Assembly: GCA_963762985.1 (NCBI GenBank)
Contig: CAVXMK010000024.1
Location: 4,791 to 68,790, forward strand
Source: an uncultured Chloroflexia bacterium
GTDB lineage: Bacteria; Chloroflexota; Chloroflexia; Thermomicrobiales; UBA6265
DNA length: 64,000 bases
Direction: 5' to 3'
The translations under genes were made by a program, and so were the position numbers. Position 1 is the first letter of the stretch, and every line of letters starts with the position of its first letter. Below, one piece after another: positions 14,256-42,319 of this stretch. The notes below the pieces were generated by a model. It saw nothing but the letters and a program-made list of their open reading frames with translations. It searched no databases and was not told the DNA's origin.

Positions 14256-16688
14256 TTAGACGAGGCGGTCGCGCATGGCGATGGCCACCGCGGCGGTGCG
14301 GGAGGGGGCGTCCAGCTTGGCGCGGATGGCTTCGACGTGGCTGGAGGCGGTGCGGCGGCCGATGCCGAGCGCGGCGGCGATCTCCTTGTCGGTCATGCCG
14401 CCGACCAGCAGCCGCAAGATGTCTTGCTCGCGCGCGGTGAGCCCGGTCGCCGGCACGCACGCGTGGTGTGCCGCCTGGGCGGCTATCTCGGCCGCGAGTG
14501 AGCGAGCCTCGGCCACCGCATCGCCGAGCGCCAGCGCCCTGCCCGCGCTCCACGCCGCGGCGAAGACCTGCTCGCCCAAGAGCGCCCGCGCCTGCTTCAG
14601 CACCCGCGCCTCGTCGATGCGGTCGGCGTACAGCGGGCGGGCAGCCAGCGCCGACCGTTGCGCTTCGGCGGCCGCGAACAGCCGCACCGCCGGCTGCGGG
14701 CGCCCCATTGCCTCGGCCAGGGCCGCAAGCGTGAGCACGCCGATGTCGATACGACTGATTGCGCCAAGCGCCTGATAGATGGCCAGGCTCTCGTCGAGAT
14801 ACATGGCCGATGCCCGCGCATTCCCGGCTACCCGCTCCAACTCACCCAGTTCGTACAGGCACCAGGCAAGGCCGAACCGGTCGTCGTGCGCGCGATACAG
14901 CGCGAGAGCCTCGGTCAGGAGCGGACGTGCGCGCTCGAAGTTCCGCTGGCGCGTCGCCAGCGCCCCGAGCTCCCCAAGTGCCGTGGCGATGCCTCGTACG
15001 TGACCGAGCCGGCGGGCCAAATCCAGGATTTCCTCGTAGAGCGCCACGGCACGATCGAAATCTCCGGCCTCCGTGGCCGCGAGGGCGATCATCTGGTTGG
15101 CCCGAAGCACGCCGTCCCGATCGCCTAACACACGATAGAGGATGGCGGCCTCCTCGGCGAAGGGAGCGCTACGCTCCAGGGCGCATTGCTCGTTGGTCAG
15201 CACGCTGGCTCCATAGAGCGCCCTGGCCCGCGCCGCCGCCGGGATCGCCTCGCCCAGTGTCAGCACGCGTTCGGTCCACTCCAGACCTTCGCTGAGATGG
15301 CCGTGCATGGCCCAGAAGTATGAAAGGGCTCCAGCCAGTTTCGCGGCGGTTTCGGCGTCGTGGTTGAGCGACCACGACAGCGCAGCCCGCAGGTTGTCGT
15401 GGTCGCTGGCAAGCCGATCGAGCCAGAGTGTTTGCGCCGCTCCCGGTTCCGAAGACCACAACACGCTCCGCGCCGCTTCGGCCAGGCAGAGGAACCAGGC
15501 GGCATGGGCGGCGTCGGCGACCTCCGCTTCGCCACGCTCGACCAGTCGTTCCAGAGCGAACTCGCGAACTGTTTCCAGCATCGTGAAGCGCGGGGCAGGA
15601 TCCTGCGAGAGCACCTGGAGCAGGCTCTTTTCGATGAGCCCGGCGATGCGATCCAGCAGCCCCGAAGCAGAGGCGGGAGGGTCGTCTGGTCCGGTCCAGG
15701 AGGCCGCGGCCTCCCTGGCCACGTGCTCGGCCGCCTCGAGGGTGAAGCCGCCTACGAAGACGGCGAGGCGTCGAAACACCCGAGCTTCGTCCTCGTCGAG
15801 GCGGTCGTACGACCAGGCGATGGCGTCGCGCATGGTGCGCAGGCGCGCCGGCTGGTCCGTGGCGCCGCCAAGCAGCAGGGGCAGTCTCGGTTCGAGTCGA
15901 GCCAGCAGCGCCCGCGGCGGCAGGATGTGGGTCCAGGCCGCCGCCAGTTCGATGGCCAGCGGCAAGCCGTCGAGGCGCCGGCAGATCTCGACGACGGCGG
16001 CGGCGTTCTCGCCATCGAGGGTGAAATCCGGGCTCATCCTGCGCGCACGGTCGACGAACAGCGCGACGGCGCCGAAATCCGGCAGCGCATCGATCGCGGA
16101 CTCGTCACCCGCGGCCGGAGACGCAAGGGGCGGGGTCGGGAAGCGCTGTTCGCCGCTGACCCGCAACGGCGCACGGCTGGTGGCCAGCACGGTCAAGCCA
16201 TGACATCCCGCCAGCAGGTGGGACACGTCGCCCGTGGCGTCGAGCACGTGCTCGACGTTATCCAGGACCAGGAGCAAGCGACGGCGCCGCAAGAACTCCG
16301 CCACGGCCTCGGCCAGGGACCGTTCCCGCGCCTCCCGGATGCCCAGGGAGCATGCGACGGCGGGCAGCACCATCTTCCCGTCTTCAACGGCGGCGAGCGG
16401 GACGAATGCCACGCCGTCGGGAAAATCGGGCGCGGCCGCCGTTGCCGCCGCGAGCGCCAATCGCGTTTTGCCAACGCCGCCGGGACCCGTCAGCGTCAGG
16501 AGGCGCATCTCGGGGGCGACCAGCAGCGCGCGAACCGCGGCCACATCGGCTTCGCGCCCGACCAACGAGGTCAGCGGGCGGGGAAGTTGGCCGGGCAGCC
16601 CCGCGACCGAGGCGTCGAGCGGCCGCTTCGGCGTAACGGCACGCAGGTGGACGGGAGGAGGTTCGGAGGCGGGCAGTTCGGGCGGCAC
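14256..16688 (-). CDS. LuxR-family transcriptional regulator with STAND-type ATPase and TPR-like region
   Basis: Walker [12 protein letters not shown] and a long helical repeat region. C-terminal HTH is [46 protein letters not shown] start (VPPELPAS). Confidence 0.85.
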
Positions 16689-28099: not shown

Positions 28100-28350
28100 C
28101 GCGTCCTCCTTGCCACGATCTCCACGCCGAAGATTTCGCCGATTGACGCGAGCCGCGGCGGGTCTCGCGCTGCCGGCACGGCAATCTCGGTGAGCGTGCA
28201 GCATAACAGGGTGACGGTGCGCGCGGGGCAGCGAGGGAACGATTCTCGCTGGCGTGGCACGGTTCTCGCAGGGGTCGCCGGTATCCGCCCGGGTCCGCCG
28301 TGGCATGAATGGCGGTGCCCGGCGGATCGGCCCACGACCGGGAATGCCCA

Positions 28351-29892
28351 ATGAGCCGCGAGATGCACGGCCGGATCACCCGCAGGCGACTGGTGGCGGG
28401 AACGGTTTCACTGGGCGCAAGCCTCGGCCAGTCAGCCACGTCATTCGCCGTGGGTGACGAAGGCCGCGCACACCAGGTGCCCGGCGCTCACGCCCGGAGC
28501 GGGGATGTCGCCGCCATCGCCGACGTGACGGTCGTCGACGCCACGGGGTCGCCCCCACTGCCGCACATGACGGTGACGATCGAGGGCGAGCGGATCGCTG
28601 ATATTCGCCCCGCGGACACGGCCGAGGCTCCCGCGGGGGTGCGCGTGGTCGACGGCGCGGGGCGGTTTCTGATCCCCGGTCTGTGGGATGCCCACGTCCA
28701 CAGCTTCGTCTTCCCCTGGCAACCCGATGTCTATCTGCCGCTGCTCGTCGCCAACGGGGTCACCGGCGTGCGGGACATGGGCGGCACGTTCCCCATGGAC
28801 GCCATCGATGACGTACGCGCCGTGATCGCCGCCGGGGAGAGCGTCGGGCCGCGCATCGTGGCCGGGATGATGGTCGACGGTCCCACTCCGGTCTGGCCCT
28901 TCGCGCTGCGCGCCGGGACCGCCGAGGACGCTCGTCAGGCGGTCGCGACGATCGCCGAGTCCGGGGCCGATTTTGCCAAGGTCTACACGCTGTTGCCGCG
29001 GGAGGCATTCTTCGCCATCGCGGACGCCGCGAACGAGCGCGAGCTTCCCTTCGCCGGTCACGTCCCGATCGCGGTGACGGCCACGGAGGCCTCGGATGCC
29101 GGGCAACGCAACGTCGAGCACTACAGCGACTCGATGTTGCCGTATTGCTCGACGGACGAGGAGGCGATGCTGGCCAAACTGCGCGCCGCGGCGGAAGGCC
29201 CAGAGCCGGTGCAGGCGTACGCGGCCACGTTCTTCGCTGCCCTGCCGCCGTTGTTGGAGACGTTCTCGCCCGAGAAGGCCGCGGCGCTGGCGGAGCGCTT
29301 CGTGGCCAACGAAACCTTCTTTTCCCCGACGCTGATTATCGGACAGATCGCGGCGCGGGCCGGGGAGCCGGAACTGCTCGCTGACCCGCGGCTGCGCTAC
29401 CTGCCGCCGGAGGTCACCGCCGCGTGGATGCCGCAAGGGGATGCCGCCCCGGCCGAAGGCACGAGCGTGGATCCGGCGGTCGCGCGGCGGTCGCTGGAAG
29501 TCGGCGCGGAGATCACGCGGGCGATGCAGCGGGCCGGAGCGCCGGTGCTGGCCGGCACCGACCTCGGGTTGCCGTACGTCTTGCCCGGATTCAGCCTGCA
29601 CGACGAGCTGGGGCTGCTGGTGGAGGCGGGACTGAGCCCCCTGGAAGCGCTCCAGGCGGCAACCCGCAACGCGGCAGACGCCGTAGGGTGGGGCGACGAC
29701 CTGGGAACGGTGGAGAGCGGCAAGCTGGCGGATCTGGTCCTCCTCGACCGCGATCCGCTGGCCGACATCGCCAACACCACGCGCATCGCGGCTGTCGTGG
29801 CAAACGGACGGCTGCTGGAGGATTCGGAGTTGGAAAGGTTGGCGCCGAACCGAGCCCAGGTCGCTACGCCCGCGGCGTCCCCGATGCCGTAG
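28351..29892 (+). CDS. Tat-exported amidohydrolase-family protein
   Basis: Leader MSREMHGRITRRRLVAGTVSLGASLG, metal-binding GLWDAHVHS, and C-terminal GKLADLVLLDRDPLADI. Confidence 0.8.
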   Translation: MSREMHGRITRRRLVAGTVSLGASLGQSATSFAVGDEGRAHQVPGAHARSGDVAAIADVTVVDATGSPPLPHMTVTIEGERIADIRPADTAEAPAGVRVVDGAGRFLIPGLWDAHVHSFVFPWQPDVYLPLLVANGVTGVRDMGGTFPMDAIDDVRAVIAAGESVGPRIVAGMMVDGPTPVWPFALRAGTAEDARQAVATIAESGADFAKVYTLLPREAFFAIADAANERELPFAGHVPIAVTATEASDAGQRNVEHYSDSMLPYCSTDEEAMLAKLRAAAEGPEPVQAYAATFFAALPPLLETFSPEKAAALAERFVANETFFSPTLIIGQIAARAGEPELLADPRLRYLPPEVTAAWMPQGDAAPAEGTSVDPAVARRSLEVGAEITRAMQRAGAPVLAGTDLGLPYVLPGFSLHDELGLLVEAGLSPLEALQAATRNAADAVGWGDDLGTVESGKLADLVLLDRDPLADIANTTRIAAVVANGRLLEDSELERLAPNRAQVATPAASPMP

Positions 29893-30024
29893 GGGCCGGT
29901 TGGGCGGTCGCACGCGGCATCGAGAGCGTTCGGCTCGCCGCCGATTCCGTAGACCGACCGTACGCAGTGCAGCCCTTCAGAGGGCCAATTTCGGCGATCC
30001 GGGAAAATTGTCCCGCTTACCCTC

Positions 30025-30052
30025 TTGACACTGTGTCACGATGATGTAGAGT
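30025..30052 (+). promoter_or_regulatory. Sigma-70-like promoter TTGACA-N16-TAGAGT
   Basis: TTGACA at 30025-30030 and TAGAGT at 30047-30052, directly upstream of the hairpin-rich region. Confidence 0.5.
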
Positions 30053-30058
30053 GTACGT

Positions 30059-30440
30059 ACTGAAGCACCGGGGGCCGCGCAAGCGGAGAGGCGGCCGGAG
30101 CAATCCGGAAGCCAAGGCAGAAGTCGGACTTGCCAGCAATGGCTGACCGACGACTCCCGGGGGACCGATCCCGTCGCGGTGGCAACACCGTTAGTCTTTG
30201 GTGGCTTGTCCACCAATGTGGTGACGGTCCAGGGTTTGCGGCAGCAATGTCGCGGACCGGGCGCACGGCAGGCGGCACACGAACACCGGCTGGCGAGCGT
30301 TCGATCGGGGAGCGGCCGAGCAATCGGCGCGGCGAACCGGTCACCGGGGTTCCGACGGATTTATCCGTCGGAAGCCACTGGGGCCTCAGGACGGAGCGCC
30401 GATGGCTGCGCAAGCGGCTGTCGGCGTTTCTGTGTTTGTC
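30059..30440 (+). ncRNA. Candidate ~380-nt structured RNA of unknown class (seven GCAA-tetraloop hairpins, intrinsic terminator)
   Basis: GCAA-loop hairpins are CCGC-GCAA-GCGG (30075), CCGGA-GCAA-TCCGG (30095), GCCA-GCAA-TGGC nested in GTCGG/CCGAC (30123-30151), and CGGTG-GCAA-CACCG (30177). Further ones are GCGGCA-GCAA-TGTCGC (30236) and GCCGA-GCAA-TCGGC (30314). A 10-bp hairpin TTCCGACGGA/TCCGTCGGAA lies at 30350-30373. The terminator stem at 30398-30425 also has a GCAA loop and is followed by gtttctgtgtttg. ORFs across the region are Arg/Gly-rich. Confidence 0.5.
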
Positions 30441-30468
30441 CTACCGCTTGACCGAAGGGATTCGCCCC

Positions 30469-30726
30469 GTGGCCAAGACGCAGACGGTGAAAGCCGATAC
30501 GACTGGCCGACTCACGCTGCCGGCGAGCCTCTGCAAGGCACTCGGCATTGAGCCTGGGGATACGTTCGTGGTCGCCGCCGAGGAGCAGGGCATTGTGCTC
30601 CGCCCCATGCAACGCGAGAATCCATTCGACGCTCGTGCCGAACACGCGTTGGCCGAGTATCGAGCGGGGCGAACGCAGAATTTGCGCGATTTTGCTACGG
30701 ACCAAGGCATCGACCTGGACGGTTGA
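30469..30726 (+). CDS. AbrB/MazE/SpoVT-family DNA-binding (antitoxin-like) protein
   Basis: GTG at 30469 lies 8 nt after GAAGGGA. VAKTQTVKADTTGRLTLPASLCKALGIEPGDTFVVAAEEQGIVLRPM is a swapped-hairpin barrel motif. No toxin partner is seen. Confidence 0.6.
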   Translation: MAKTQTVKADTTGRLTLPASLCKALGIEPGDTFVVAAEEQGIVLRPMQRENPFDARAEHALAEYRAGRTQNLRDFATDQGIDLDG

Positions 30727-30775
30727 GCGCATGCGCCACCTCTGCAGCGCCCTTCAGGGTGCTATCGCTAAGTCA

Positions 30776-30798
30776 GCCTGATCCCTTTGGGGTCAGGC
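30776..30798. repeat. 23-bp hairpin repeat (family C), inverted copy of 7145-7167
   Basis: gcctgatccctttggggtcaggc. Confidence 0.55.
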
Positions 30799-31035
30799 GA
30801 CATGGCAGCGAAAGCCCAATCAGGGAACGCTGTTGCCAGCCTCGCCCGCCCCGCCGGAGGCTCAAAGCCATCCGGCTGCCCCAACGAAAGCCCCGTAAAA
30901 CGGGGCTGGATTCGGCTCGGATCAGTCACGGATACAGTCTATTCGAGGGGTAGGGCGCAAGACATCGGTTGTCGAAGTCGAACGGGACCAATCAACCATT
31001 GCGGGCCAGCAGCCCAGCGCGAAAGGAGGCTTCGC

Positions 31036-31590: not shown

Positions 31591-31712
31591 CCGAGACGGG
31601 CTACCTGCGAGCGATCCGCCAGCCCGACTCTCCGGCTTGCCCAGCCCCCGGTTAATTCGGGCTACACGGTCACCTCGACGCGATCGCCCCGATCTGCCAT
31701 GCCCCAGACCGT

Positions 31713-31999
31713 GTGCCAAGCGGTGCCAAACGGTGACTCGACTGCGGCACGGCCCGAATCTCCGATGCGCTTTTATGCATTGCTGAAGTTTTCTGGAGTG
31801 CCGTCACACGCCGGCCAGAGGCACAGGCGAGAGTCGGATGCCCAAGCCGCCCTGCGACGTACGCCCCCACGCGATTGACTCGCGGCCAATTCAGCGCCCT
31901 GGTGTCCGTACATCTCCGTGCCAAGTCAGGCAAAGTGTCCGTTCACCACTGTGCCAACGAAGTCAAACCGACCCGAAGGTCCCCTTCGGCGCGTGCCAA
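31713..31999. promoter_or_regulatory. Iteron-like GTGCCAA repeats flanking an AT-richer patch (candidate origin/operator region)
   Basis: GTGCCAA occurs at 31713, 31723, 31918, 31951 and 31993. The locally AT-rich stretch gcttttatgcattgctgaagttttctgg lies at about 31769-31796. The region is upstream of the MerR-like/initiator-like gene pair. Confidence 0.35.
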
Positions 32000-32154
32000 T
32001 GGGGCACACCGTTTACTTCCTTCGCTCCCAGACCTACTATGCAGTTGCAGAGCGGAGGGGAGGACTCCCGCCGCTGACGAGGACCGATCCGCCGCCATCT
32101 CATCTGGACCGGCACGCGGTGGCAGCAAGGCGAGAGCAGCCGGGAGGCGAAGTC

Positions 32155-32457
32155 GTGGCAACCGAACACATCGCCCCGGAAACCGGGCTGGGTCGCACCT
32201 GGACGGTGCCGGAACGAGGACAGGCCGGCCGACTCTACATGACTGGCGATCTGCGCGCGCTGACCGGGCTGCCGCGCACCCACATGGATTTCTTCCTGCG
32301 CGAGGGCATTGTCCAGCCGACGCTGCGCACGGGGAGCGGCTACCTGCTCTTCGACGACGCCGAACTGGAGACCCTGCGCGCCGTGTTGCGCTGGCGGGAG
32401 GAGGGGGTCGGGATCCGCGAGATCCGCGACCGCCTCGGCCGACCGGCGACGGACTGA
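32155..32457 (+). CDS. MerR-family HTH protein
   Basis: GTG at 32155 lies 7 nt after GGGAGG. LYMTGDLRALTGLPRTHMDFFLREGIVQPTLRTGSGYLLFDDAELETLRAVLRWREEGVGIREIRDRL. An alternative ATG lies at 32239. Confidence 0.6.
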   Translation: MATEHIAPETGLGRTWTVPERGQAGRLYMTGDLRALTGLPRTHMDFFLREGIVQPTLRTGSGYLLFDDAELETLRAVLRWREEGVGIREIRDRLGRPATD

Positions 32458-32580
32458 GACCGACGGAGGATGGCGCGGCGGGCGCAATCGGCCGCGCCGG
32501 AGGAGAGAAGCAATCACGAGACTGACCGATGACCCGCTGCGGGGTTCAGGCCGCCGGGCGTAGGGACGGAAGGCGCTCAC

Positions 32581-32608
32581 TTCCGACTTCCGACCTCCGA
32601 CTTCCGAC
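32581..32608. repeat. Four tandem heptamers TTCCGAC (GTCGGAA on the minus strand)
   Basis: ttccgac ttccgac ctccgac ttccgac, immediately 3' of the minus-strand terminator. Confidence 0.7.
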
Positions 32609-32611
32609 TCG

Positions 32612-32817
32612 CAAGAACGACAAAGGCCGGCGCGCCAACGCCAGCCTTTCTCCGGTCTTTCGGTTGTGACCTTGCCCGAACCCGTTACCGGGTTCCTGAC
32701 CTGACGCGCTAACCGGGTTTCGAACGGACCGTCGCCAAACCGCCTGTTCGAGCCCACCGAGCGCCAGATGTGCCGCCGCGTTCCCCGCCAAGGGAGGGTT
32801 GCTTGTACCCAGGCGAC
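32612..32817 (-). ncRNA. Candidate ~200-nt small RNA, antisense to the leader of the initiator-like gene
   Basis: The minus-strand promoter TTGACA-N18-TAGATT lies at 32853-32824. An internal hairpin GAACCCG-GUAA-CGGGUUC is present. The terminator AAAGGCUGGCG...CGCCGGCCUUU (32649-32622) is followed by GUCGUUCUU. No convincing ORF. Confidence 0.45.
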
Positions 32818-32823
32818 TCCGTG

Positions 32824-32853
32824 AATCTAAGCATGCCTCGGGAGGCGTGTCAA
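32824..32853 (-). promoter_or_regulatory. Sigma-70-like promoter TTGACA-N18-TAGATT on the minus strand
   Basis: tgtcaa at 32848-32853 and aatcta at 32824-32829 on the plus strand. Confidence 0.45.
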
Positions 32854-33128
32854 TACCGGGTGTCGGGTGTCCGACGGGGTTCCGACGTTCGATGGCCGGC
32901 TTCTGCGTCCCCCCCGAGGGGCGGGGAGTCCGCGTGACCTCGTCACGGGACCAACGCCGCGGCGCGGCGCCGAAAAAGCCCCTCTCCCTGCGCACAGGGC
33001 CGGGTGCCCTCGGGGCGGCGGTTGGGGTGAGGGTTGCCCAGAAAGAGGGGATAAGTCCCAGCCCCGGCGGCCACCCCGAAGAACCCCAGCTCGCCCCCGT
33101 CCCCGAGGCGACCCTCGGCGGGGAAGAC

Positions 33129-34814
33129 GTGCGGCGGCGGGGCTGGTTCTGGCACTGGAATGCGCTGGTCACCCAGTACGCGCCGCTGATCGGGTTGAAG
33201 GGGGTGGGGCTGCTCAACTCCTACACGGTCTGGACCGACCGCCGCGAGGAGTCGCCCCATCGCGGCTACGCCTTCCCCTCCCAGCAAAGCGAGGCCGACT
33301 TCTACGGCGAGGACCGCGCCGAGCTGATCACGATCAACAAGATCCTGGTGGCGCTCGACCTGATCGAGATCCGCAAGGAGATGGTGGTACGCGCCGATCC
33401 CCAGGGGCGGCGCTGGAAGGTGCCGCACAACTTCTACCGGGTCAAGGACCACGGCGACGACTTCACCCTGAGCACGCCGGACGTGCTGCGCGTGGCGGAA
33501 CTGGCGGCGAAGGACCGCTCCGTCTACCGCTACGTGCGGCGCGTCTTCTCCCCCCGCTTCGCGCCGATCGACGGGGACAACGTCTGGGGCCGTATCCTGC
33601 CGGAGGTGCGCGCCACGCCGGTCTGGCAAGAGCTTGCCGCGAAGGCCGCCGCCGAGGAGAATCGCGCCTCCGCTCGCACCCGCGCCGGGCACGCCGCGCG
33701 CAAGGGGAGCGCCCCCGCGCCGGACGACTCCGGCGAAACCGGCTCCGCGACGCCATTTTTTGTGCCCGCGGACGGTGACGGCGCGACAACGCGCGCCAGC
33801 GGCAATGACAGCAGCGGTGTCAATAGCAAGGTTGATGAGAAAATCTTTGTTGCAAACGCCAACACTGGTTTGGGGGTGGATGTTGCCGGGACCAACAGAG
33901 GTTCGGGCACGATCGGGCGAAGCAGCGTTGCTCCGGTCAACGAAGCTGAGGCAACCGATGTTGAACCGACCAACACGACGTATCACCAATCATCGACAAC
34001 AACGAAAGACGGACCGAATCAAACGATTGCAGAACGATTGGATCGGCCGGCGGCGAAGATCGTGCAGGCGACAACGACAGGGGATGCGCCAAGCGGTGGG
34101 CCGGGCGCGAGCCCACCGGCTGACGGCCCAGGCGAGACCGCCGCGCTGCGGGCCTTCGAGAGCGCGAACGACCGGGCGGCAACCCCGGCAGAGCGCAAGA
34201 TCCTGCGCGACCTTGCGGCTCGCTTTCAGCCGGTGGCCGAGACCGCGGGGAAGGTGCGAGACGATGTGCCTGAGTCCGGCTGGGGGTGGCTGGAGGCAGC
34301 AGTGTGGGAGGCGGTGGAGGCGGGGAGCGCGTTTGTGGCGCCGCGCCGGCTGCGGGAGATCCTGCTGCGTTGGGAGCGGGACGGCTTTCCCCAGCCGAGC
34401 GGTCCCCAACCGCCCCAGCCGAACCAGCCCCGACGAGAGTCCCGTCGCACGGCGCGACCAGACGAGACCGTGCCTCCGCCGCGCTCATTGCCTCCGGTCT
34501 TCGCCATCGAGGAGGTCGGGCTGTCCAACCGGCAGGTCTGGGCGGCGACGCTGGCGGAGTTGGGGCAACGCGGCGACGTGGGACGGGCCGATCTGGAAAC
34601 CTGGCTGCGGCCGGCGGCGCTTGTCGGGCGGGATGGCGATACGCTGTTCGTCGGCGCGCCGAATGCCGTGGCCCGCGACCGGATCGCGAGCAGGCTGCTG
34701 TCAGCGCTGCGTCAGGCGCTGACGGCGACGATCGGCGTGGCGCTCGACGTGGTGGTTGTGGTCGAGACTGACGAAGGTTGGACACGTCATCAGCACGACA
34801 CGCCGGCGAGCTGA
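33129..34814 (+). CDS. Replication-initiator-like protein (N-terminal winged HTH, DnaD/DnaB_2-like domain, C-terminal DnaA_N-like domain)
   Basis: GTG at 33129 follows GGGGAAG. wHTH-like WNALVTQYAPLIGLKGVGLLNSYTVW...GYAFPSQQSEADFYGEDRAELITINKILVALDLIEIRK. DnaD-like TPAERKILRDLAARF...WLEAAVWEAVEAGSAFVAPRRLREILLRWERDG. DnaA_N-like VWAATLAELGQRG...DLETWLRPAALVGRDGDTLFVGAPNAVARDRIASRLLSALRQAL. The ORF upstream of 33129 overlaps repeats and the antisense RNA. Confidence 0.55.
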   Translation: MRRRGWFWHWNALVTQYAPLIGLKGVGLLNSYTVWTDRREESPHRGYAFPSQQSEADFYGEDRAELITINKILVALDLIEIRKEMVVRADPQGRRWKVPHNFYRVKDHGDDFTLSTPDVLRVAELAAKDRSVYRYVRRVFSPRFAPIDGDNVWGRILPEVRATPVWQELAAKAAAEENRASARTRAGHAARKGSAPAPDDSGETGSATPFFVPADGDGATTRASGNDSSGVNSKVDEKIFVANANTGLGVDVAGTNRGSGTIGRSSVAPVNEAEATDVEPTNTTYHQSSTTTKDGPNQTIAERLDRPAAKIVQATTTGDAPSGGPGASPPADGPGETAALRAFESANDRAATPAERKILRDLAARFQPVAETAGKVRDDVPESGWGWLEAAVWEAVEAGSAFVAPRRLREILLRWERDGFPQPSGPQPPQPNQPRRESRRTARPDETVPPPRSLPPVFAIEEVGLSNRQVWAATLAELGQRGDVGRADLETWLRPAALVGRDGDTLFVGAPNAVARDRIASRLLSALRQALTATIGVALDVVVVVETDEGWTRHQHDTPAS

Positions 34815-34840
34815 TGGGACGAGCGCCGGCAGGAGAGACG

Positions 34841-36173
34841 ATGAGCGACGCCCCGCGCGATCTGGGTCATGGTTTGCTTTTGCGCAAGGCGCGGCTGGAG
34901 GATCGCGAGACACTGGCCCAGCTCCACGCGACCATATTGGTCGACGTCGACGAGGAGGTTCCGGCGGCGCGTCTCTATTACTTCGTGCTCGATCTCATGA
35001 GCGGCGCCCACCCCCTGTGTCGGGCGGATGATTTCACCGTGGTCGAGGAGATGGCCACCGGGCGCATCGTCTCCTCGATGGTCCTCATCTCGCAGACGTG
35101 GACCTACGACGGGGTGCCGTTCAGGGTGGGGCAGCCGGATATCGTCAGCACGGACCCCGAGTATCGGCGGCGCGGTCTGGTGCGAGCGCAGTTGGCGGAG
35201 GTCCACCGCTGGAGCGCGGCGCGTGGCGAGCTGGTGCAGGGCATCACCGGCATTCCCTGGTACTACCGGCAGTTCGGCTACGAAATGGCGCTCAGCCTCG
35301 ATGCGTCCCGCGGCGCCTACCGGGCTGAATGTGCCCGCGCTGAAAGCTGGCGAATCGGAGCCGTTTGCGTTGCGCCCGGCCACAACCGACGATCTCCCGT
35401 TCATCATGGCGATGTACGAGCAGGGTGCGGCGCGCGCGGTGGTCGCCGCCGTGCGGGACGAGGAACTGTGGCGCTTCGACTTGGAACGACGGCACGAGCG
35501 CAACGGCACGAGCAGCCACATCCGCATCATCGAAGCGCGGGAGCGTCATGGCCCGCCCGTTGGTCTGCTGATCCACTCGCGCCGGCTGTGGGGGACCGAT
35601 CTGGGGGTGCGGCTGTGCGAAGTCCGGCCCGGCGTGCCCTGGCTGGCGGTGGCGCCGGGGATGATGCGCGCGCTCGACGCGACCGGGGTGGAGTACGCGG
35701 CCCGCGATGGCGGCGAGTATCAGGGCATCGTATTCGACCTGGGCGAGACCCATCCGTTGTACGACACCGTTGCCGATCGTTTGCCGAAGGTGGGCCGGCC
35801 GTATGCGTGGTATCTCCGAGTTCCCGATCTGGTGGCGTTTCTCAACCGCATTGCGCCGGCATTGGAGGGGCGGCTGGCAGAATCGCCGCAAGGCGGCTAC
35901 AGCGGCGAGCTGACAATCAGCTTCTTCCACTCGGGGATTCGCCTCGTGTTCGACGAGGGGCGCGTTGCCGTCGCAGATTGGCGGCCGGATCGGATCGAGG
36001 CAGGCGATGCGCTGTTTCCCGAATTGAGCTTTCTGCCGCTGCTGTTCGGGTTTCGCTCACTGGACGATGTGCAACGCGCCTACCCCGACTGCGCGGTCAA
36101 CACGGACGATGCCCGCGCGTTGCTGCCGATCCTGTTCCCGAAAACGGATTCGCAGGTCTGGTCTGGCGGTTGA
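34841..36173 (+). pseudogene. GNAT N-acetyltransferase (Eis-like, with sterol-carrier-like C-terminal region), frameshifted near 35318-35330
   Basis: ATG follows AGGAGAG. LLLRKARLEDRETLAQLH...DPEYRRRGLVRAQL...WYYRQFGYEMALSLDASRGAY continues in another frame as LNVPALKAGESEPFALRPATTDDLPFIMAMYEQG... Confidence 0.7.
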
Positions 36174-36190
36174 GCGGGTGGGCCGGGGCA

Positions 36191-37495
36191 TCACCCCGCG
36201 GGCTGGCCGGCTCGGCTCTGGCTTGTCGGCGACTCGACGCGTTGCCCGCGCGCGCCGATCTGGACCCAGATCACGAGCGCGGCGACGGCGAGCAGCAGCG
36301 CGCCGGCGGCGACGAATGTGGAGCGGAAGCCGAGGCTGGTGGCCAGGATGGCCCCCAGCAGCGGGCCGACGAACCCGCCTGCCCCGGAGAGGGCGGCGGT
36401 CAGCCCGAAGACGGCGCCGCGACGCTCCAGCGGGCTGAGGTGGGCGACAAGGGCGTTGGCGGACGGGATGAGGCCGCCGGCGGCCACGCCCATCAGCGCC
36501 TGCAAGACGGCGAGTTGCCACGGATCGCGGACGATGGCCATCGGCAGGTAGAGCAACCCCGCCGCGACGAGACTGATGGCCAGGACGCGCCGGTGGCCGG
36601 CGCGGTCCCCCAGGCGGCCCAGGTAGGCCGCGGCGAGGGCACTGGTGAACCCGGCCGCGCCGAGGACGAGACCGGAGAGCGTGGCCACATCGGGGTTGTC
36701 CGGGGCGAGCTCCTGCACGAAGAGGGGGATGATCGGCTGCATCGACATGGAGACCATGCGGACGACGAAGATCGAGGCGAGGACGGTGAGCATGGCAGCG
36801 GTGAAGAGGAAGGCGCCGCTCGTGCGGAACCGTCGCCAGCGGCCGTCGTCGCCGTTGGTCAAGGGGTGCCGGGCCACGGGGGCGAAGCGCTCGCGGGCGA
36901 AGAGGGCGACGAAGATGCCGCCGCAGAATAGCATGGCCGCGCTCAGCTCGAACGTGGCGCGGGGACCGACGCGGTCATAGGCGAAGCCACCGAAGAGGGG
37001 GCCAGCCGAGGCGCCGGCGAAGACGGCCGTCTGCACCATGCCGAGCGCGTAGCCGAGGCGCTTGCGGGGGGCGCTGGCGGCGACGAGGGCGGTGGCAGCG
37101 GCGACGGTGCCGGTGAGGGCGCCTTCCAGCATGCGCAGCGCCAGCAGTTGCCACGGGGCGACGGCGAACCCCATCAGCGCCACGGTGAGGGCGCCGCCGA
37201 AGAGTCCGCGCAGCAACATCGGTTTGCGGCCGTAGCGGTCGGCCATGAGGCCCCAAATCGGGGCGGTGATGGCCATGACGCCCGCGCCGGCGGCGTTGAT
37301 GGCGCCGGCCCAGAGCGCCTGCCCGGCGACGTCGGGCACCCCGAGCTCGCCGACATAAAAGGGCAGGAACGCCGCGCGGGAGGAGAACCCGATCAAGGCG
37401 AGGAGCTGGCCGGCCCAGACGGCGTAGAGGGTGACGGTCCAGCCGGGCTGCCCCGCCTCGGGATCGGCGGGGGGTGGGCCGGGGTCGGAGGTCAT
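36191..37495 (-). CDS. MFS transporter
   Basis: Twelve-TM-like protein with MADRYGRKPMLL (the MFS D-R-x-G-R-K/R motif). The start was set at MTSDPG (37495) because the upstream 25 codons are encoded by the GTCGAAA heptamer repeat. Confidence 0.85.
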   Translation of the reverse strand: MTSDPGPPPADPEAGQPGWTVTLYAVWAGQLLALIGFSSRAAFLPFYVGELGVPDVAGQALWAGAINAAGAGVMAITAPIWGLMADRYGRKPMLLRGLFGGALTVALMGFAVAPWQLLALRMLEGALTGTVAAATALVAASAPRKRLGYALGMVQTAVFAGASAGPLFGGFAYDRVGPRATFELSAAMLFCGGIFVALFARERFAPVARHPLTNGDDGRWRRFRTSGAFLFTAAMLTVLASIFVVRMVSMSMQPIIPLFVQELAPDNPDVATLSGLVLGAAGFTSALAAAYLGRLGDRAGHRRVLAISLVAAGLLYLPMAIVRDPWQLAVLQALMGVAAGGLIPSANALVAHLSPLERRGAVFGLTAALSGAGGFVGPLLGAILATSLGFRSTFVAAGALLLAVAALVIWVQIGARGQRVESPTSQSRAGQPAG

Positions 37496-39286: not shown

Positions 39287-42200
39287 TCAAGCGGGTGCTC
39301 TCTCCTCGATTTCCACCGCGATGGATATGGCCTCGGTGACGGCCTCTTCGGGCCGTAGTGCGGCGCCCTCGTCCTGGGCGAGCGTGAAGGGAGATGCGCC
39401 GAGCTCGGTTTCGGCCGCGGCCAGATCCCGGGCGCGGCGTTCGGCGGCGTAGCCATGGAGGTGGAGGTCTTCGGGAGCGCGCCACGCTTCCTCGGCCGCG
39501 AGGAGGCGGACGGCTTGTGCCGCCCGACCTTCTGCCAGGGCGAGGGACGCTACGCCCTGGAGGGCGCCGACTAACGCGCGCGCATCGGCCAGCTCCCGCG
39601 CGGCGGTGAGACCCGCCTGGTAGGTTCTAGCGGCGGCCGTAGTGTCTCCCCGGGCGAGGAGGGCATCGGCCAGGCTGACCTGCAGGAGGGCGATGGCGCT
39701 GGGGTCGCCACGCTCGCGCGCGATCGCCAGCGCCTCTTCGAACAGCGTCGTCGCCGCGTCGAACGCCCCCTGGCTGAGCCGGATGTCCCCAAGATCGTTG
39801 TAGTTCTGGGCGATGCTGATTCGCGAGCCGCTGTCGCGGTAGTGCGTCTCGGCCTCTTGCAGGAGTGTCGCCGCGCGGTCGAGGTCGCCCTGTGCGACCG
39901 CGATGTTGCCGAGCAGATGCAGGGCCTGGCCCTCGATCAGCCGGAAGCCGAGTGCCCTGGCATCAGCTTGCGCCACCTCGGCAAGTTCCCTCGCCGAGTC
40001 GAGATCGCCCTGGGCAAAGACCGTGGCGCCGAGCGCCGCGCGCACATAACAGCTGAACGCGCGATCCCCCAGGACCGCCACTTCCGCCAGCGATTGTTCG
40101 AACAACCGTCTGGCCTCGCTGATCCGCCCCGTCACCCGTGCCGCATTGCCGAGGCCATACAGCGCGATGGCCGCTCCCCACCGTTCCCCGGACTCGCGGA
40201 AGGCTTCGCGCGCCCGCGTGGTGAGCTCGCCCGCTCGTCGGTGGTCTCCGGCCAGCCGTGTGGCGGCGCCGAGATTGAGCAGGGCCCAGCCTTTGCCTCG
40301 GACATCGTCAAGCGTGTCGGCCAGGTGTAGCGCTTCGTTCGCGCGGGCTTTGGCGACGCCGAGGTCGCTCTGGTTCCAGGCCAGAAAGCTGGTCCAGTTG
40401 AGGGCCGTCATGCGCAATGGGCCGGGCGTCGACGGGTCGGCAAGCGCCCGCTCCAGCCAGGCCCGCCCATCGCTGAGCCGCCCACGCAGGAACCAATACC
40501 AATGCTGGCCGGCCGCGAGCCGCAGCGCCGATTCCGGATCGTGACGCAGCGTCCAGCGCAGGGCCGCGCGCAGATTGTCGCGCTCAGCGTCCATCTGCCC
40601 CATCTGCTCGACCTGGCGCGGCCCGCTCATGTGGGGTGCGATGGATGCGACCCAGTCGGTGAAGTAGCGCGCGTGTCTGGAGGAGATCTCATCGGCTTCC
40701 CCGCTCTCGTCCAGGCGCTCCAACCCGAACTCGCGGACCGTCTCCAGCATGAGGAAACGCGGCTCGCCGCCCGGCTGCTCGTCCTGGCGCAACAGGCTGT
40801 GCTCGACCAGGTGCTCCAAGCCGCCGAAGACATCCAGCTCCCGATTCTCGCCCTCGGTCTCCCACTGTCCGCCCGCGACCGTTTCCGCGGCCTCGAGGGT
40901 GCAGCCACCGGCAAAGATCGCCAGTCGCCGAAACAGGGTTTGCTCGGCGGGTTCGAGCAGGTCGTAGCTCCAGCCGATGGCGTCCCGTAGTGTGCGCTGT
41001 CGTTGCGGCGCGTCGCGGGCGCCGCCGGTCAGCAGCGGCAAGCGCCGCTCCAGCCGCGCCAGCATGGCCTGTGGCGGAAGCATGCGGATGCGGGCCGCGG
41101 CCAGCTCAATGGCCAGCGGCAGGCCATCGAGTCGCCAGCAGATCTCGGCAATCGCCGGAGCCGTCTCGTTGTCGACGGCGAAGTCCGGCTTGACCGCCTG
41201 CGCCCGGGCGATGAAGAGCCGCACCGCGTCGTACTGGGTGAGTTGCTCGGCCGTGGGTGGTGGCTTGCGGGGCGGCAGGTCGAGCGCCGGCACCGGGTAC
41301 TCGCGCTCGGCGCGCACATGGAGGGGCGTGCGGCTCGTGGCCAGGACCTTGAGCGATGGGGCGGCGGCGAGAAGCTCGGCGACGAGCGGCGCGGCCTCGA
41401 TGAGGTGCTCGACGTTGTCGAGCAGGAGGAGGACATCCCTGGCGGCCAGGAACTCGTGGAGCCGATCGGTGAGCGGGCGCCCACCTTCCTCGCGGACGCC
41501 GAGGGCGGCGGCGATGGCGGAGGGAACCAGGGCGGGGTCGGTGAGGGGCGCCAGGGCGACGAAAAAGACACCGTCGGCGAACTCGTCGATGGCGTCCGCG
41601 GCGACCTGCAACGCAAGGCGGGTCTTGCCGCTGCCACCGGGACCGGTCAACGTCAGGAGGCGGACATCGGGCCGACGCAGGAGCGCGGCAACCTCCGCTA
41701 CCTCGTCGTCCCGGCCGAGGAAGGGGGTCGGTTGCAGCGGCAGGTTGTTCGGGTGAGCCCGCAGGGAGCGGAGCGGCGGAAAATCGGCGGGCAGATCGGG
41801 GTGGGCGAGCTGGAAGACGCGCTCCGGCTCGAGCAAGTCACGCAAGCGGTGGTCCCCGAGATCGTTGAGCGAGACATCCGCGGGCAGGCTGTCGCGGGCC
41901 AACTGCTGGACGGCCTGGGAGAGGAGAATCTGGCCGCCGTGCGCGGTGGCCAGCAACCGCGAGAGGCGGTTGAGAGGGGCGGCGAGGTAGTCGCCGCGCT
42001 CGTCCGGGACCGCTTCCCCGGCGTGCAGCGCCATGCGGACGCGGAGCGGGCCTGCTCCGCCCCAGTTTTCGGCGAGGAGGGTCTGTTGGGCCTCCAGTGC
42101 CGCGGTCACGGCCTGCGGGGCGGTTGGGAAGGCGGCCTGGATGCCATCGCCGACGGTCTTGAAACGGACGCCGTTGTGAGCGGCGATAGCCCGATCGAGC

Positions 42201-42319
42201 AGCGCCAGGTGGCGGTCGACGGCCGACCGCATGGCGGTGCGATCGCGTTCCCAGAGGCTGGTGGAACCCTCGATATCGGTGAAGAGGAAGGTGACGGTGC
42301 CGTCGGGAAGCTCAGGCAT
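39287..42319 (-). CDS. Class III adenylate/guanylate cyclase domain fused to a STAND-type ATPase and TPR repeats
   Basis: N-terminal VTFLFTDIEGSTSLWE...FKTVGDGIQAAF, Walker A GPGGSGKTRLA, and a long C-terminal TPR-like region. There is no LuxR HTH. Confidence 0.85.
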   Translation of the reverse strand: MPELPDGTVTFLFTDIEGSTSLWERDRTAMRSAVDRHLALLDRAIAAHNGVRFKTVGDGIQAAFPTAPQAVTAALEAQQTLLAENWGGAGPLRVRMALHAGEAVPDERGDYLAAPLNRLSRLLATAHGGQILLSQAVQQLARDSLPADVSLNDLGDHRLRDLLEPERVFQLAHPDLPADFPPLRSLRAHPNNLPLQPTPFLGRDDEVAEVAALLRRPDVRLLTLTGPGGSGKTRLALQVAADAIDEFADGVFFVALAPLTDPALVPSAIAAALGVREEGGRPLTDRLHEFLAARDVLLLLDNVEHLIEAAPLVAELLAAAPSLKVLATSRTPLHVRAEREYPVPALDLPPRKPPPTAEQLTQYDAVRLFIARAQAVKPDFAVDNETAPAIAEICWRLDGLPLAIELAAARIRMLPPQAMLARLERRLPLLTGGARDAPQRQRTLRDAIGWSYDLLEPAEQTLFRRLAIFAGGCTLEAAETVAGGQWETEGENRELDVFGGLEHLVEHSLLRQDEQPGGEPRFLMLETVREFGLERLDESGEADEISSRHARYFTDWVASIAPHMSGPRQVEQMGQMDAERDNLRAALRWTLRHDPESALRLAAGQHWYWFLRGRLSDGRAWLERALADPSTPGPLRMTALNWTSFLAWNQSDLGVAKARANEALHLADTLDDVRGKGWALLNLGAATRLAGDHRRAGELTTRAREAFRESGERWGAAIALYGLGNAARVTGRISEARRLFEQSLAEVAVLGDRAFSCYVRAALGATVFAQGDLDSARELAEVAQADARALGFRLIEGQALHLLGNIAVAQGDLDRAATLLQEAETHYRDSGSRISIAQNYNDLGDIRLSQGAFDAATTLFEEALAIARERGDPSAIALLQVSLADALLARGDTTAAARTYQAGLTAARELADARALVGALQGVASLALAEGRAAQAVRLLAAEEAWRAPEDLHLHGYAAERRARDLAAAETELGASPFTLAQDEGAALRPEEAVTEAISIAVEIEERAPA

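What the first reader, a model, noticed from the sequence alone, without database searches (positions are those of the whole stretch)
30025..30440. Candidate ~380-nt highly structured RNA with seven GCAA tetraloops, its own promoter and terminator
The region lies between the amidohydrolase gene and an AbrB-like gene. A TTGACA-N16-TAGAGT promoter is followed by a run of stable hairpins, seven of them capped by the GNRA loop GCAA (positions 30079, 30100, 30136, 30182, 30242, 30319 and 30410). One of these is nested inside an outer GTCGG/CCGAC helix. A 10-bp TTCCGACGGA hairpin is also present, and a 12-bp GC-rich terminator stem precedes a U-rich tail. So many identical GNRA loops in one strand orientation are unlikely by chance; on the other strand the loops would read UUGC. 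I could not match RNase P, tmRNA, SRP, or the cobalamin, ZTP, glmS or c-di-AMP consensus features from memory. The terminator lies 30 nt before the RBS of the AbrB-like gene, so a long cis-regulatory leader is an alternative reading.
Basis: partly seen in the sequence, partly recalled or inferred. Interest (0 to 1): 0.7.

Follow-up and report, generated by a model that had tools for sequence, protein, structure and literature searches.

The report
New abundant structured RNA of soil Thermomicrobiales
This stretch is the gene of a previously undescribed, intricately folded ~320-nt non-coding RNA of uncultured soil bacteria (Thermomicrobiales), and soil RNA data sets hold it at 10,000 to 100,000 times the level of its neighbouring genes.

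Summary
Seven of the nine GCAA-capped hairpins in the 64-kb window lie in these 416 nt.

It is a stand-alone gene, not a leader. Sixteen further copies were found in soil metagenomes and Thermomicrobiales MAGs. They share the promoter, an invariant leader, the fold and the terminator, but their downstream genes differ. Twenty-one of 85 base pairs show compensatory changes (0/500 shuffles reach this), and all 102 loops of six hairpins stay GNRA.

At least 37 soil or rhizosphere metatranscriptomes hold the RNA. Contig depth is 10^4-10^6 on the RNA and 0-3 on 20 kb of flanks. The RNA runs from 30068 to about 30384-30392, so a ~9-nt leader and the terminator hairpin are trimmed off.

Nothing known matches: Rfam 15 (4227 families), ARAGORN, plasmid, phage and viral collections, and a full-text paper search all gave nothing.

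The function is unknown. My best inference is a very stable trans-acting structural or scaffold RNA, comparable to raiA, OLE, ROOL/GOLLD or 6S/Ms1. Its GNRA loops would make tertiary, intermolecular or protein contacts.

The parts
30004..30010 (+). A/T tract AAAATTG about 15 nt upstream of the -35 hexamer (UP-element-like)
   Evidence: Conserved as AAAATTGC or AACATTGC in most homologues (alignment). A role as an UP element is inferred.
30025..30030 (+). -35 hexamer TTGACA
   Evidence: Promoter scan. Invariant in all homologues whose upstream DNA is held.
30047..30052 (+). -10 hexamer TAGAGT, 16-nt spacer
   Evidence: Reads TAGAGT, TAGGGT or TGGAGT in the homologues.
30053..30067 (+). Invariant start region GTACGTACTGAAGCA. 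It contains the palindrome GTACGTAC (30053-60), the expected transcription start near 30059, and the ~9-nt leader that is absent from the mature RNA.
   Evidence: 100% identical in all 17 copies, although the core is only about 75% identical. RNA contig depth is 0 here in 8 runs. In about 300 kb of held DNA the palindrome occurs only at this promoter.
30060..30066 (+). P0 5' strand (leader). It pairs with 30383-30389 of the 3' tail and exists in the precursor only.
   Evidence: The pairing is kept in all lineages. The tail reads GCCUCAG, GCUUUGG, GCUUUAG, GCUUCA or GCUUCGG. The one leader change (G to A in L028) turns a G-U pair into A-U (pairs checked).
30068..30392 (+). Mature RNA, about 317-325 nt. 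The 5' end is at 30068 and 3' ends lie at 30384-30392.
   Evidence: Adapter-joined contig ends at 30068 in four runs and at the equivalent L029:2170 in a fifth. 3' adapter joins at 30384, 30389, 30391 and 30392, and at L029:2460/2462. Depth is 1e4-1e6 inside and 0 outside.
30068..30074 (+). P1 5' strand. It pairs with 30375-30381 and closes the outer multi-helix junction.
   Evidence: C30069-G30380 is invariant. 30070-30379 is G-U, G-C (L046) or A-U (L059) (sequences). This is a short, irregular helix and the least certain one.
30075..30086 (+). H1 hairpin CCGC-GCAA-GCGG
   Evidence: The stem is invariant. The loop is GCAA or GAAA.
30090..30113 (+). H2 hairpin with a GG/AA internal loop and a GCAA loop
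   Evidence: 3 of 8 pairs have double-sided changes. The loop is GCAA or GCGA.
30123..30151 (+). H3 hairpin: outer GUCGG/CCGAC helix, an A-A mismatch, an inner GCCA/UGGC helix and a GCAA loop
   Evidence: 3 of 10 pairs have double-sided changes. A30135G and T30140C occur at equal depth in four metatranscriptomes, so they are a linked compensatory change. The loop is GCAA or GAAA.
30155..30160 (+). P2 5' strand (UCCCGG). It pairs with 30344-30349 and closes the inner junction.
   Evidence: C30157-G30347 becomes U-A independently in L043 and L059. The rival pairing with the 5' end gives mismatches in L046, L058 and L059.
30163..30167 (+). P3 5' strand (GACCG). It pairs with 30225-30229 (CGGUC).
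   Evidence: 98.7% of cells are paired, with one double-sided change.
30176..30191 (+). H4 hairpin GCGGUG-GCAA-CACCGU
   Evidence: 3 of 5 pairs have double-sided changes. 30179 G>A and 30188 C>U are each frequent in the metatranscriptomes and occur together in L037, where they keep the pair.
30198..30216 (+). H4b, a lineage-specific extra hairpin (UUGGUGG-CUUGU-CCACCAA)
   Evidence: Present only in the window and L037. Many metatranscriptome contigs diverge after 30190.
30233..30258 (+). H5 hairpin with a GCAA loop
   Evidence: 3 of 10 pairs have double-sided changes. The loop is GCAA or GUAA.
30259..30302 (+). H6, a long irregular hairpin with apical loop CACACGAACA
   Evidence: 3 of 13 pairs have double-sided changes. 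The stem sequence is almost entirely replaced in L046, L058 and L059, yet still forms a hairpin topped by CGG-loop-CCG (read by hand).
30303..30342 (+). H7 hairpin with bulged G residues and a GCAA loop
   Evidence: 2 of 16 pairs have double-sided changes and 8 vary on one side only, keeping the pair in most cells. GAGCGGCCGAGCAAUCGG is among the most conserved stretches.
30350..30373 (+). H8, a 10-bp hairpin with loop UUUA
   Evidence: 2 of 8 pairs have double-sided changes. The A30355-U30368 pair is an A-C mismatch in all other copies. The loop is GCGA or GCAA in L046, L058 and L059.
30393..30440 (+). Intrinsic terminator: 17-pair hairpin with a GCAA loop (30393-30430) and a T-rich tail. It is removed from the mature RNA.
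   Evidence: It is 91% identical among lineages, more conserved than the core. RNA depth is 0 beyond 30404.

Best explanation
This is the gene of a previously undescribed stand-alone non-coding RNA. It belongs to a clade of uncultured soil Thermomicrobiales (Chloroflexota).

Shown: A conserved sigma-70-type promoter (A/T tract, TTGACA, 16-17 nt, TAGAGT) and a conserved intrinsic terminator bracket a primary transcript of about 380 nt. The RNA that accumulates runs from 30068 to about 30384-30392. It folds into two nested multi-helix junctions, P1[H1, H2, H3, P2, H8] and P2[P3-H4, H5, H6, H7]. Six hairpins always end in a GNRA tetraloop. In many soil metatranscriptomes it is 10^4-10^5 times more abundant than any neighbouring gene.

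Inferred: Transcription starts near 30059. The invariant ~9-nt leader pairs with the 3' tail (P0), as in precursors of stable RNAs. The leader and the terminator hairpin are then cut or trimmed away.

Inferred function: It acts in trans as a very stable, compact structural RNA. Its many GNRA loops make tertiary contacts within the molecule, and probably also between molecules or with a protein partner. It would therefore work as a scaffold or sequestering particle that builds up in slow-growing or dormant soil cells. This resembles the abundant 'ornate' RNAs (raiA, OLE, ROOL, GOLLD) or 6S/Ms1. It is not a riboswitch or a short base-pairing regulator.
For: Real and non-random:
- 7 of the window's 9 GCAA hairpins lie here.
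- Fold z-score is -5.84 on the + strand against -2.60 on the - strand.

Gene-like unit:
- Promoter and terminator are found by scan.
- Both are conserved in 16 further copies whose flanks differ.
- Identity among lineages is 100% for the leader, 91% for the terminator, 76% for the promoter and 75% for the core, against a background of about 62%.

Structure:
- Model-based alignment of 17 copies gives 96.5% of cells paired.
- 21 of 85 pairs carry double-sided changes. Shuffles give 6.1 +/- 2.0 (0 of 500 reach the observed value), and slid partners give 1-8.
- 9 of 10 helices have at least one compensatory pair.
- All 102 loops of H1-H5 and H7 are GNRA.

Strand:
- Many pairs alternate between G-C or A-U and G-U. 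On the other strand these would be A-C mismatches.
- Adapter orientation on contig ends fits a + sense RNA.

Expression:
- 19 metatranscriptomes hold the window type and at least 18 others hold the commoner type.
- Depth is 1e4-1e6 on the RNA, against 0-15 on immediate flanks and 0-2.8 over 20 kb.
- A DNA run shows the locus at ordinary single-copy depth.

Ends: the 5' end is at 30068 in five runs, and 3' ends lie at 30384-30392.

Not cis-acting: downstream genes differ by lineage and are not expressed.

No known family.

Extra hairpins, two of them GCAA-capped, were gained independently in three lineages.
Against: - There are no functional data and no cultured carrier.
- No GNRA receptor, pseudoknot or conserved partner gene was identified, so the scaffold or assembly role rests on analogy.
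- GNRA loops could simply be stable caps.
- Only 16 distinct sequences from about 8 lineages were available, and the alignment used for counting was fitted to the model.
- P1 is short and irregular.
- Contig depth is a rough measure of abundance. It mixes many strains at 80-95% identity, and high RNase resistance could inflate it.
- The 5' end comes from assembled contigs, not from data that distinguish primary from processed ends.
- The RNA is missing at the syntenic site in sister clades (L040, L044, L047), so it is not essential to the order.
Confidence: 0.6

Rival explanations
1. It is a functional analogue of 6S RNA or Ms1. An abundant stable RNA binds RNA polymerase (holoenzyme or core) and holds it in reserve during non-growth.
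For: It is extremely abundant in soil RNA, where most cells grow slowly. It has its own strong promoter and terminator and processed ends, as 6S has. Rfam found no 6S RNA in the loci held, but those cover only a small part of each genome.
Against: The fold is a multi-branched double junction with ten short helices. It is not the long irregular rod with a central open-promoter-like bubble that defines 6S and Ms1. No 6S match appears even at E up to 10. It is absent from sister clades at the syntenic site.
Confidence: 0.1
2. It is a large ribozyme. The precise 5' end at 30068 would arise by self-cleavage of the invariant leader, or the RNA would catalyse another reaction in trans.
For: The 5' end is sharp and identical in five runs, about 9 nt downstream of the expected start. 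The leader is 100% invariant. The GNRA-rich, junction-rich architecture is typical of large ribozymes such as RNase P RNA and group I introns.
Against: There is no match to any ribozyme family in Rfam. Leader removal by cellular RNases acting on a leader-tail helix is the ordinary explanation. No invariant single-stranded catalytic core stands out, and the junction strands vary between lineages.
Confidence: 0.08
3. It is a cis-regulatory leader (riboswitch or attenuator) that controls the downstream gene through the terminator.
For: The terminator lies about 25 nt before the RBS of the AbrB-like gene in the window. In the commonest lineage, a candidate GTG start of a nucleotidyltransferase-like ORF, read by hand, lies in the terminator's T-tract (sequences).
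Against: The downstream gene differs by lineage: AbrB plus RibD_C, an NTP_transf_2-like ORF, or a 136-138-aa hypothetical located 50-840 nt away. Downstream depth is 0 while the RNA is at 1e5. No alternative anti-terminator pairing is conserved. The size and abundance fit a stable RNA.
Confidence: 0.03
4. It is the guide or structural RNA of a mobile element or defence system, such as an IscB/TnpB omega RNA, an IS110 bridge RNA, a retron ncRNA or a group II intron fragment.
For: Toxin-antitoxin genes (MazE/AbrB, ParE, PIN) and, in one relative, transposases lie nearby. The region from 31.6 to 36.6 kb lacks the strong third-codon-position G+C bias of the rest of the window.
Against: No nuclease, transposase, recombinase or reverse transcriptase is adjacent in any of 7 lineages. 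The locus is single-copy and syntenic between an SBP/DUF2243 gene and the MerR gene. There are no Rfam matches to HEARO or related families. There are no hits in viral, phage or plasmid collections.
Confidence: 0.02

Closest known systems
raiA motif RNA (Rfam family; about 200 nt; Firmicutes and Actinobacteria)
   Same: It is a stand-alone, highly structured ncRNA whose cellular abundance approaches that of rRNA and tRNA, and its function is unknown (abstract of PMC12968392, listed).
   Different: cmscan finds no sequence or structure match. This RNA is larger, has a different fold (two nested junctions), belongs to a different phylum, and has no link to a raiA gene.
ROOL, GOLLD and OLE 'ornate' large RNAs
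   Same: They are ornate multi-helix bacterial RNAs of unknown function with very high expression where measured (PMC5643018). ROOL, GOLLD and OLE form RNA-only homo-oligomers (PMC12286853). Such assembly is a plausible use for this RNA's many GNRA loops.
   Different: There is no Rfam match. This RNA is only about 320 nt, against about 580-800 nt. It is not associated with a prophage or tRNA genes, and no Oap-like partner genes are nearby. Oligomerisation has not been tested here.
6S RNA and Ms1 RNA
   Same: They are abundant stable regulatory RNAs with their own transcription units and processed ends, and they accumulate in non-growing cells.
   Different: The defining rod-with-central-bubble fold is absent, and there is no 6S match at E up to 10.
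Bacterial RNase P RNA (type A)
   Same: It has a similar size (330-400 nt), a closing helix formed by the two ends, several GNRA tetraloops that dock into helices, a terminator removed from the precursor, and high abundance in rRNA-depleted libraries.
   Different: There is no match to any RNase P model. The conserved P4 sequences are absent. A P4-like pairing considered by eye is contradicted by covariation, which supports hairpin H3 instead. Helix order and topology also differ.
Leader-trailer processing stems of rRNA and other stable RNA precursors
   Same: The 5' leader pairs with the 3' trailer (P0) next to the mature ends, and both ends are trimmed.
   Different: The helix is only 7 bp, or about 14 bp when stacked on P1. 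The enzyme is unknown, and the processing is inferred from contig ends only.

Membership tests
Any Rfam 15 family, including RNase P, tmRNA, SRP, 6S, OLE, ROOL, GOLLD, raiA, HEARO, ribozymes and riboswitches | Score at or above the family's gathering threshold against its covariance model | tested here: not met
   The whole window gives 0 matches. 125 kb of homologous loci give only an unrelated c-di-GMP-II riboswitch. With permissive filters at E up to 10, positions 29850-30600 give only two 13-14-bit chance matches, Xoo5 and Scr1601.
tmRNA | tRNA-like domain plus a tag-peptide reading frame | tested here: not met
   ARAGORN finds no tRNA or tmRNA in the window.
6S RNA / Ms1 | Long irregular hairpin with a large central bubble that mimics an open promoter | tested here: not met
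   The covariation-supported fold is a double multi-helix junction of short hairpins.
6S RNA / Ms1 | Binding to RNA polymerase | not testable with these tools
   This needs co-purification or gel-shift experiments.
Bacterial RNase P RNA | Conserved P4 pseudoknot and CR-I to CR-V sequences | tested here: not met
   No cmscan match. The candidate P4-like pairing AGUCGG/CCGGCU is not kept in L046, L058 or L059, whereas hairpin H3, which uses the same bases, covaries.
Cis-regulatory leader / riboswitch | A constant downstream gene, or functionally related genes, under its control | tested here: not met
   Three unrelated downstream gene sets occur in different lineages. No downstream transcription is seen.
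Stand-alone bacterial ncRNA gene | Its own promoter and intrinsic terminator, conserved independently of the flanks | tested here: met
   Promoter hexamers and terminator are conserved in all copies, while flanks sit at background identity.
Stand-alone bacterial ncRNA gene | A discrete transcript far above neighbouring genes | tested here: met
   Depth is 1e4-1e6 against 0-15, with sharp boundaries at 30068 and about 30390.
Structured RNA (evolutionarily conserved fold) | Compensatory base changes beyond what shuffled and shifted controls give | tested here: met
   21 of 85 pairs have double-sided changes, against 6.1 +/- 2.0 in shuffles and 1-8 with slid partners. Caveat: the alignment was fitted to the model, and only 16 distinct sequences were available.
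GNRA tetraloop / receptor tertiary contacts | Loops restricted to G-N-R-A | tested here: met
   102 of 102 loops in six hairpins across 17 copies are GNRA: GCAA 87, GAAA 11, GCGA 3, GUAA 1.
GNRA tetraloop / receptor tertiary contacts | Identified receptor motifs, or docking shown by probing or structure | not testable with these tools
   No 11-nt receptor motif was seen by eye. This needs chemical probing or cryo-EM.
Ornate RNA-only assemblies (ROOL, GOLLD, OLE) | Homo-oligomer formation | not testable with these tools
   This needs native gels, SAXS or cryo-EM of the transcript.

The most novel reading that the evidence does not exclude
This would be a new class of 'ornate' RNA that works without a dedicated protein. 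One possibility is a GNRA-mediated homo-oligomeric particle or condensate. The other is a new large ribozyme that cuts off its own leader. In either case it would be one of the most abundant non-ribosomal transcripts of dryland and rhizosphere soils and would be tied to the dormancy or persistence of Thermomicrobiales.
Probability: 0.22. Interest if true: 0.93.

Novelty: categorically new. Interest (0 to 1): 0.82.

Why it matters
- New large structured RNA classes are rare. Each one has opened new biochemistry, as RNase P, riboswitches, OLE and the ROOL/GOLLD cages did.
- This RNA is short enough for cryo-EM and chemical probing.
- Its fold is already supported by covariation.
- It is so abundant in public soil metatranscriptomes that it probably affects read budgets and normalisation in those studies while going unannotated.
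- It gives a direct molecular handle on the in-situ physiology of an uncultured, widespread soil lineage.
- It makes testable the question of whether RNA-only assemblies, or 6S-like reserve particles, exist outside the few known families.

Tried and rejected
- The genome-contig scan with the 18-mer GACCGACGACTCCCGGGG returned 27 loci. All were chance matches. In hindsight the invariant leader GTGTACGTACTGAAGCA would have been the better probe.
- Viral contig scans with the 18-mer, the leader and the terminator gave nothing or AT-rich chance hits. Plasmid and phage BLAST gave no match.
- RNase P was considered, because GCAGAAGUCGG and ACGAACACCGGCU look P4-like. It was rejected: cmscan is negative, and covariation supports hairpin H3 instead.
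- SRP was considered, because GGAAGCCAAGGCAGA resembles part of the E. coli 4.5S RNA sequence as recalled from memory. It was rejected: there is no Rfam match, and the bases lie in a different structural context.
- Pairing of the 5' end (CCGGGG) with CUCCCGG, as in the single-sequence MFE, was rejected in favour of P2 (30155-60 with 30344-49). Two independent G-C to A-U changes support P2.
- An alternative CACCG/UGGUG pairing competing with H4 is supported in one lineage (L034/L039) but contradicted in L035, L043 and the divergent group. It was dropped.
- A 3' hairpin GAAGCC/GGCUUU predicted by RNAalifold on the trimmed RNA is not kept in L030, L043 or L046. It was dropped.
- A pseudoknot search among unpaired columns found nothing of 4 bp or more.
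- A second weak model hit at window 11949-12059 (20 bits) is noise. It has z = -1.66 and lies inside a coding region.
- An antisense ORF of 115-119 aa appears in some copies, but insertions of 19, 23 and 25 nt break the frame in others. It is not coding.
A 273-position model without leader and tail was used.
Full report
**1. The observation**

I read 29700-30800. A script counted tetraloop hairpins with stems of at least 4 bp.
- GCAA-capped hairpins start at 30079, 30100, 30136, 30182, 30244, 30320 and 30410.
- These are 7 of the 9 such hairpins in the whole 64-kb window, which has 68% G+C.
- No UUGC-capped hairpin lies in this stretch.
- The + strand folds to -210 kcal/mol, with z = -5.84 against dinucleotide shuffles. 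The - strand gives z = -2.60.
- The consensus scan finds one promoter, TTGACA-N16-TAGAGT at 30025-30052, where 0.2 are expected by chance.
- It also finds a terminator-like hairpin at 30393-30430 followed by a T-rich tail.

**2. Known families**

- cmscan of the window against Rfam 15 at gathering thresholds gives no match at all.
- With permissive filters at E up to 10, positions 29850-30600 give only two 13-14-bit chance hits.
- ARAGORN finds no tRNA or tmRNA.
- 125 kb of homologous loci give only an unrelated c-di-GMP-II riboswitch.
- Plasmid and phage BLAST and three viral-contig scans give nothing real.
- No paper in the held library contains the conserved sequences. Three keyword searches found nothing on such an RNA.

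**3. Organism and context**

The neighbouring genes are:
- an SBP_bac_5 transporter gene (-);
- an amidohydrolase (28309-29892, +);
- a MazE/AbrB-like gene (30469-30726, +);
- a RibD_C gene;
- a MerR gene;
- a 671-aa protein with a weak DnaA_N match.

NCBI labels homologues of the 671-aa protein as belonging to Thermomicrobiales or Chloroflexia MAGs. The window therefore comes from an uncultured Thermomicrobiales bacterium.

**4. Relatives**

- A metagenome scan with a 21-mer returned 11 true homologues, L028-L039 except L031.
- Contigs encoding homologues of the 671-aa protein gave five more lineages: L043, L045, L048, L046, L058 and L059.
- In every case the RNA lies upstream of the MerR gene and the gene for the 671-aa protein (called the DnaA_N pair below), usually after a divergently transcribed DUF2243 or SBP gene.
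- The gene directly downstream of the RNA differs by lineage: AbrB plus RibD_C; a weak NTP_transf_2-like ORF; or a 136-138-aa hypothetical protein.
- Sister clades whose 671-aa protein is about 47-69% identical lack the RNA within 10 kb (L040-L042, L044, L047). Both nhmmer and the covariance model find nothing there.
- Identity among seven lineages is 100% for the 11-nt leader, 91% for the terminator, 76% for the promoter and 75% for the core. Unrelated flanks give a background of about 62%.

This is a self-contained gene, not a leader.

**5. Structure**

I derived the fold from the alignments and checked every pair in the window.
- P0 pairs the leader (30060-66) with the tail (30383-89).
- P1 (30068-74 with 30375-81) closes an outer junction that carries H1, H2, H3, P2 and H8.
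- P2 (30155-60 with 30344-49) closes an inner junction that carries P3-H4, H5, H6 and H7.

A 273-position covariance model recovered all 18 copies at 84-321 bits and nothing else in 316 kb.

On the model alignment of 17 copies, pair counting gave the following:
- 96.5% of cells are standard pairs.
- 21 of 85 pairs have changes on both sides. Shuffles give 6.1 +/- 2.0, and 0 of 500 reach the observed value. Slid partners give 1-8.
- 9 of 10 helices have at least one compensatory pair. H1 is invariant.

Caveats: the alignment was fitted to the structure, and there are only 16 distinct sequences.

Independent support comes from the metatranscriptomes. A30135G and T30140C occur at equal depth in four runs, so they are a linked compensatory change in H3.

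All 102 loops of H1-H5 and H7 are GNRA: GCAA 87, GAAA 11, GCGA 3 and GUAA 1. The H8 loop is UUUA in most copies but GCGA or GCAA in the divergent group.

Three lineages gained extra hairpins at junctions:
- H4b in the window and L037;
- a duplicate of H4 with a GCAA loop in L030;
- a duplicate of H5 with a GCAA loop in L046, L058 and L059.

No pseudoknot of 4 bp or more was detected.

**6. Expression**

- The window sequence is held by 19 soil metatranscriptome runs.
- The commoner type (L029) is held by at least 18 more, from other studies dated 2017-2025.
- Laid on the window, contig depth is 1e5-9e5 over 30084-30347 and 0-15 on the immediate flanks.
- Over 20 kb at 95% identity or more, the bin containing the RNA has depth 0.9-2.2e5, and every other bin has 0-2.8.
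- Four unrelated runs laid on L029 give 1e4-6e5 on the RNA and 0-2.4 on the flanks.
- A DNA run holds the same organism at depth 5-10 on the locus and 0-22 on the flanks, so the gene is single-copy.
- One to four thousand contigs per run map to the RNA, which points to a large micro-diverse population.

Contig depth is only a rough measure, but the contrast spans four to five orders of magnitude.

**7. Ends and strand**

- Adapters are joined exactly at 30068 in four runs and at the equivalent L029:2170 in a fifth.
- Depth is 0 at 30054-30067, even though that DNA is invariant in all copies.
- 3' adapter joins lie at 30384-30392. The terminator hairpin has depth 0.
- The -10 hexamer ends at 30052, so transcription should start near 30059. 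The ~9-nt leader and the terminator are therefore removed. This is an inference. The P0 leader-tail helix resembles processing stems of stable-RNA precursors.
- Adapter orientation runs at least 20 to 3 in favour of a + sense RNA, if the libraries are dUTP-stranded. That library type is assumed, not known.
- The frequent G-U pairs also fit the + strand only.
- No ORF is conserved.

**8. Interpretation**

Shown: this is a new, conserved, processed and very abundant structured ncRNA gene of a soil Thermomicrobiales clade.

Inferred: it acts in trans as a highly stable structural RNA. Its density of GNRA loops, about one per 45 nt, is unusual for an RNA of this size. Together with the repeated gain of further hairpins, two of them GCAA-capped, this suggests that the loops are displayed for tertiary, intermolecular or protein contacts.

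The closest analogues are raiA, OLE, ROOL/GOLLD and 6S/Ms1. It is a member of none of them. A riboswitch or leader role, a mobile-element guide RNA and a chance origin are each contradicted by the data.

Two features remain unexplained:
- The region GTGTACGTACTGAAGCA is invariant and contains the palindrome GTACGTAC.
- The terminator is conserved more strongly than the core, although it is not retained in the mature RNA.

**9. Verdict**

The finding is real, and I could match it to nothing known. The function is open. I rate interest at 0.82.

Noticed in passing
window 30053-30060 (and the same place in all 16 homologues): The perfect palindrome GTACGTAC sits between the -10 hexamer and the mature 5' end, inside a 100% invariant 17-nt block. 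It occurs nowhere else in about 300 kb of held DNA. It could be an operator for a repressor or a processing signal.
   Followed up: partly
window 30393-30430: The terminator hairpin is more conserved (91%) than the RNA core (75%), although it is absent from the mature RNA. This is unexplained. It may be a recognition element for processing or have a second function.
   Followed up: partly
L043:3119-3204 (+): A c-di-GMP-II riboswitch scores above the Rfam gathering threshold (54.5 bits). It lies upstream of a 145-aa ORF in a Thermomicrobiales contig.
   Followed up: no
window 31918-34814; L040-L059 around position 10001: A small MerR-family gene followed by a gene for a 570-770-aa protein is conserved across Thermomicrobiales. 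The larger protein has no Pfam match except a weak C-terminal DnaA_N hit. The pair occurs on chromosome-sized contigs. Its function is unknown.
   Followed up: partly
L029:2517-3161, L038, L045:5813-6460, L048:8173-8832: In the commonest RNA lineage, a ~220-aa ORF with a weak nucleotidyltransferase (NTP_transf_2) match begins right at the RNA terminator. By my hand reading its candidate GTG start lies in the terminator's T-tract. A degraded copy lies in L043. It is not detectably expressed.
   Followed up: partly
L043:7284-7700, L046:6727-7143, L058:6445-6855, L059:5857-6267, L030:202-615: A conserved 136-138-aa hypothetical protein (N-terminus ...GTYYPRHY(I/V)VAVIHD...) follows the RNA in five lineages. 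It has no significant Pfam match and is absent from the window.
   Followed up: partly
window 14256-16688, 21602-24070, 39287-42319, 60509-63172 (all - strand): Four large STAND/AAA-TPR regulators lie in one 64-kb window. Three carry LuxR (GerE) DNA-binding domains and one has an N-terminal adenylate/guanylate cyclase domain.
   Followed up: no
window about 31600-36600: No ORF here passes the G+C third-position filter that nearly all other genes of the window pass. This region holds the MerR gene, the 671-aa protein gene and a GNAT gene, and it has a different codon composition from its surroundings.
   Followed up: no
L046:6425-6450: Directly after the RNA terminator lies a short tandem repeat, GCTATCG in about 4 copies.
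   Followed up: no
window 30160-30238 and 30151-30308 (joints in RNA contigs): A few low-depth contigs skip 77, 108, 146 or 154 nt between points that lie at the bases of P3 or at the P2 junction. These may be reverse-transcriptase jumps across helices, which would fit the fold, or rare deletion variants.
   Followed up: no
window 30221-30234: Many RNA fragments have adapter-joined 3' ends clustered here, in the predicted single-stranded strand between H4b and P3. The cause could be a priming hot spot or a natural cleavage site.
   Followed up: no
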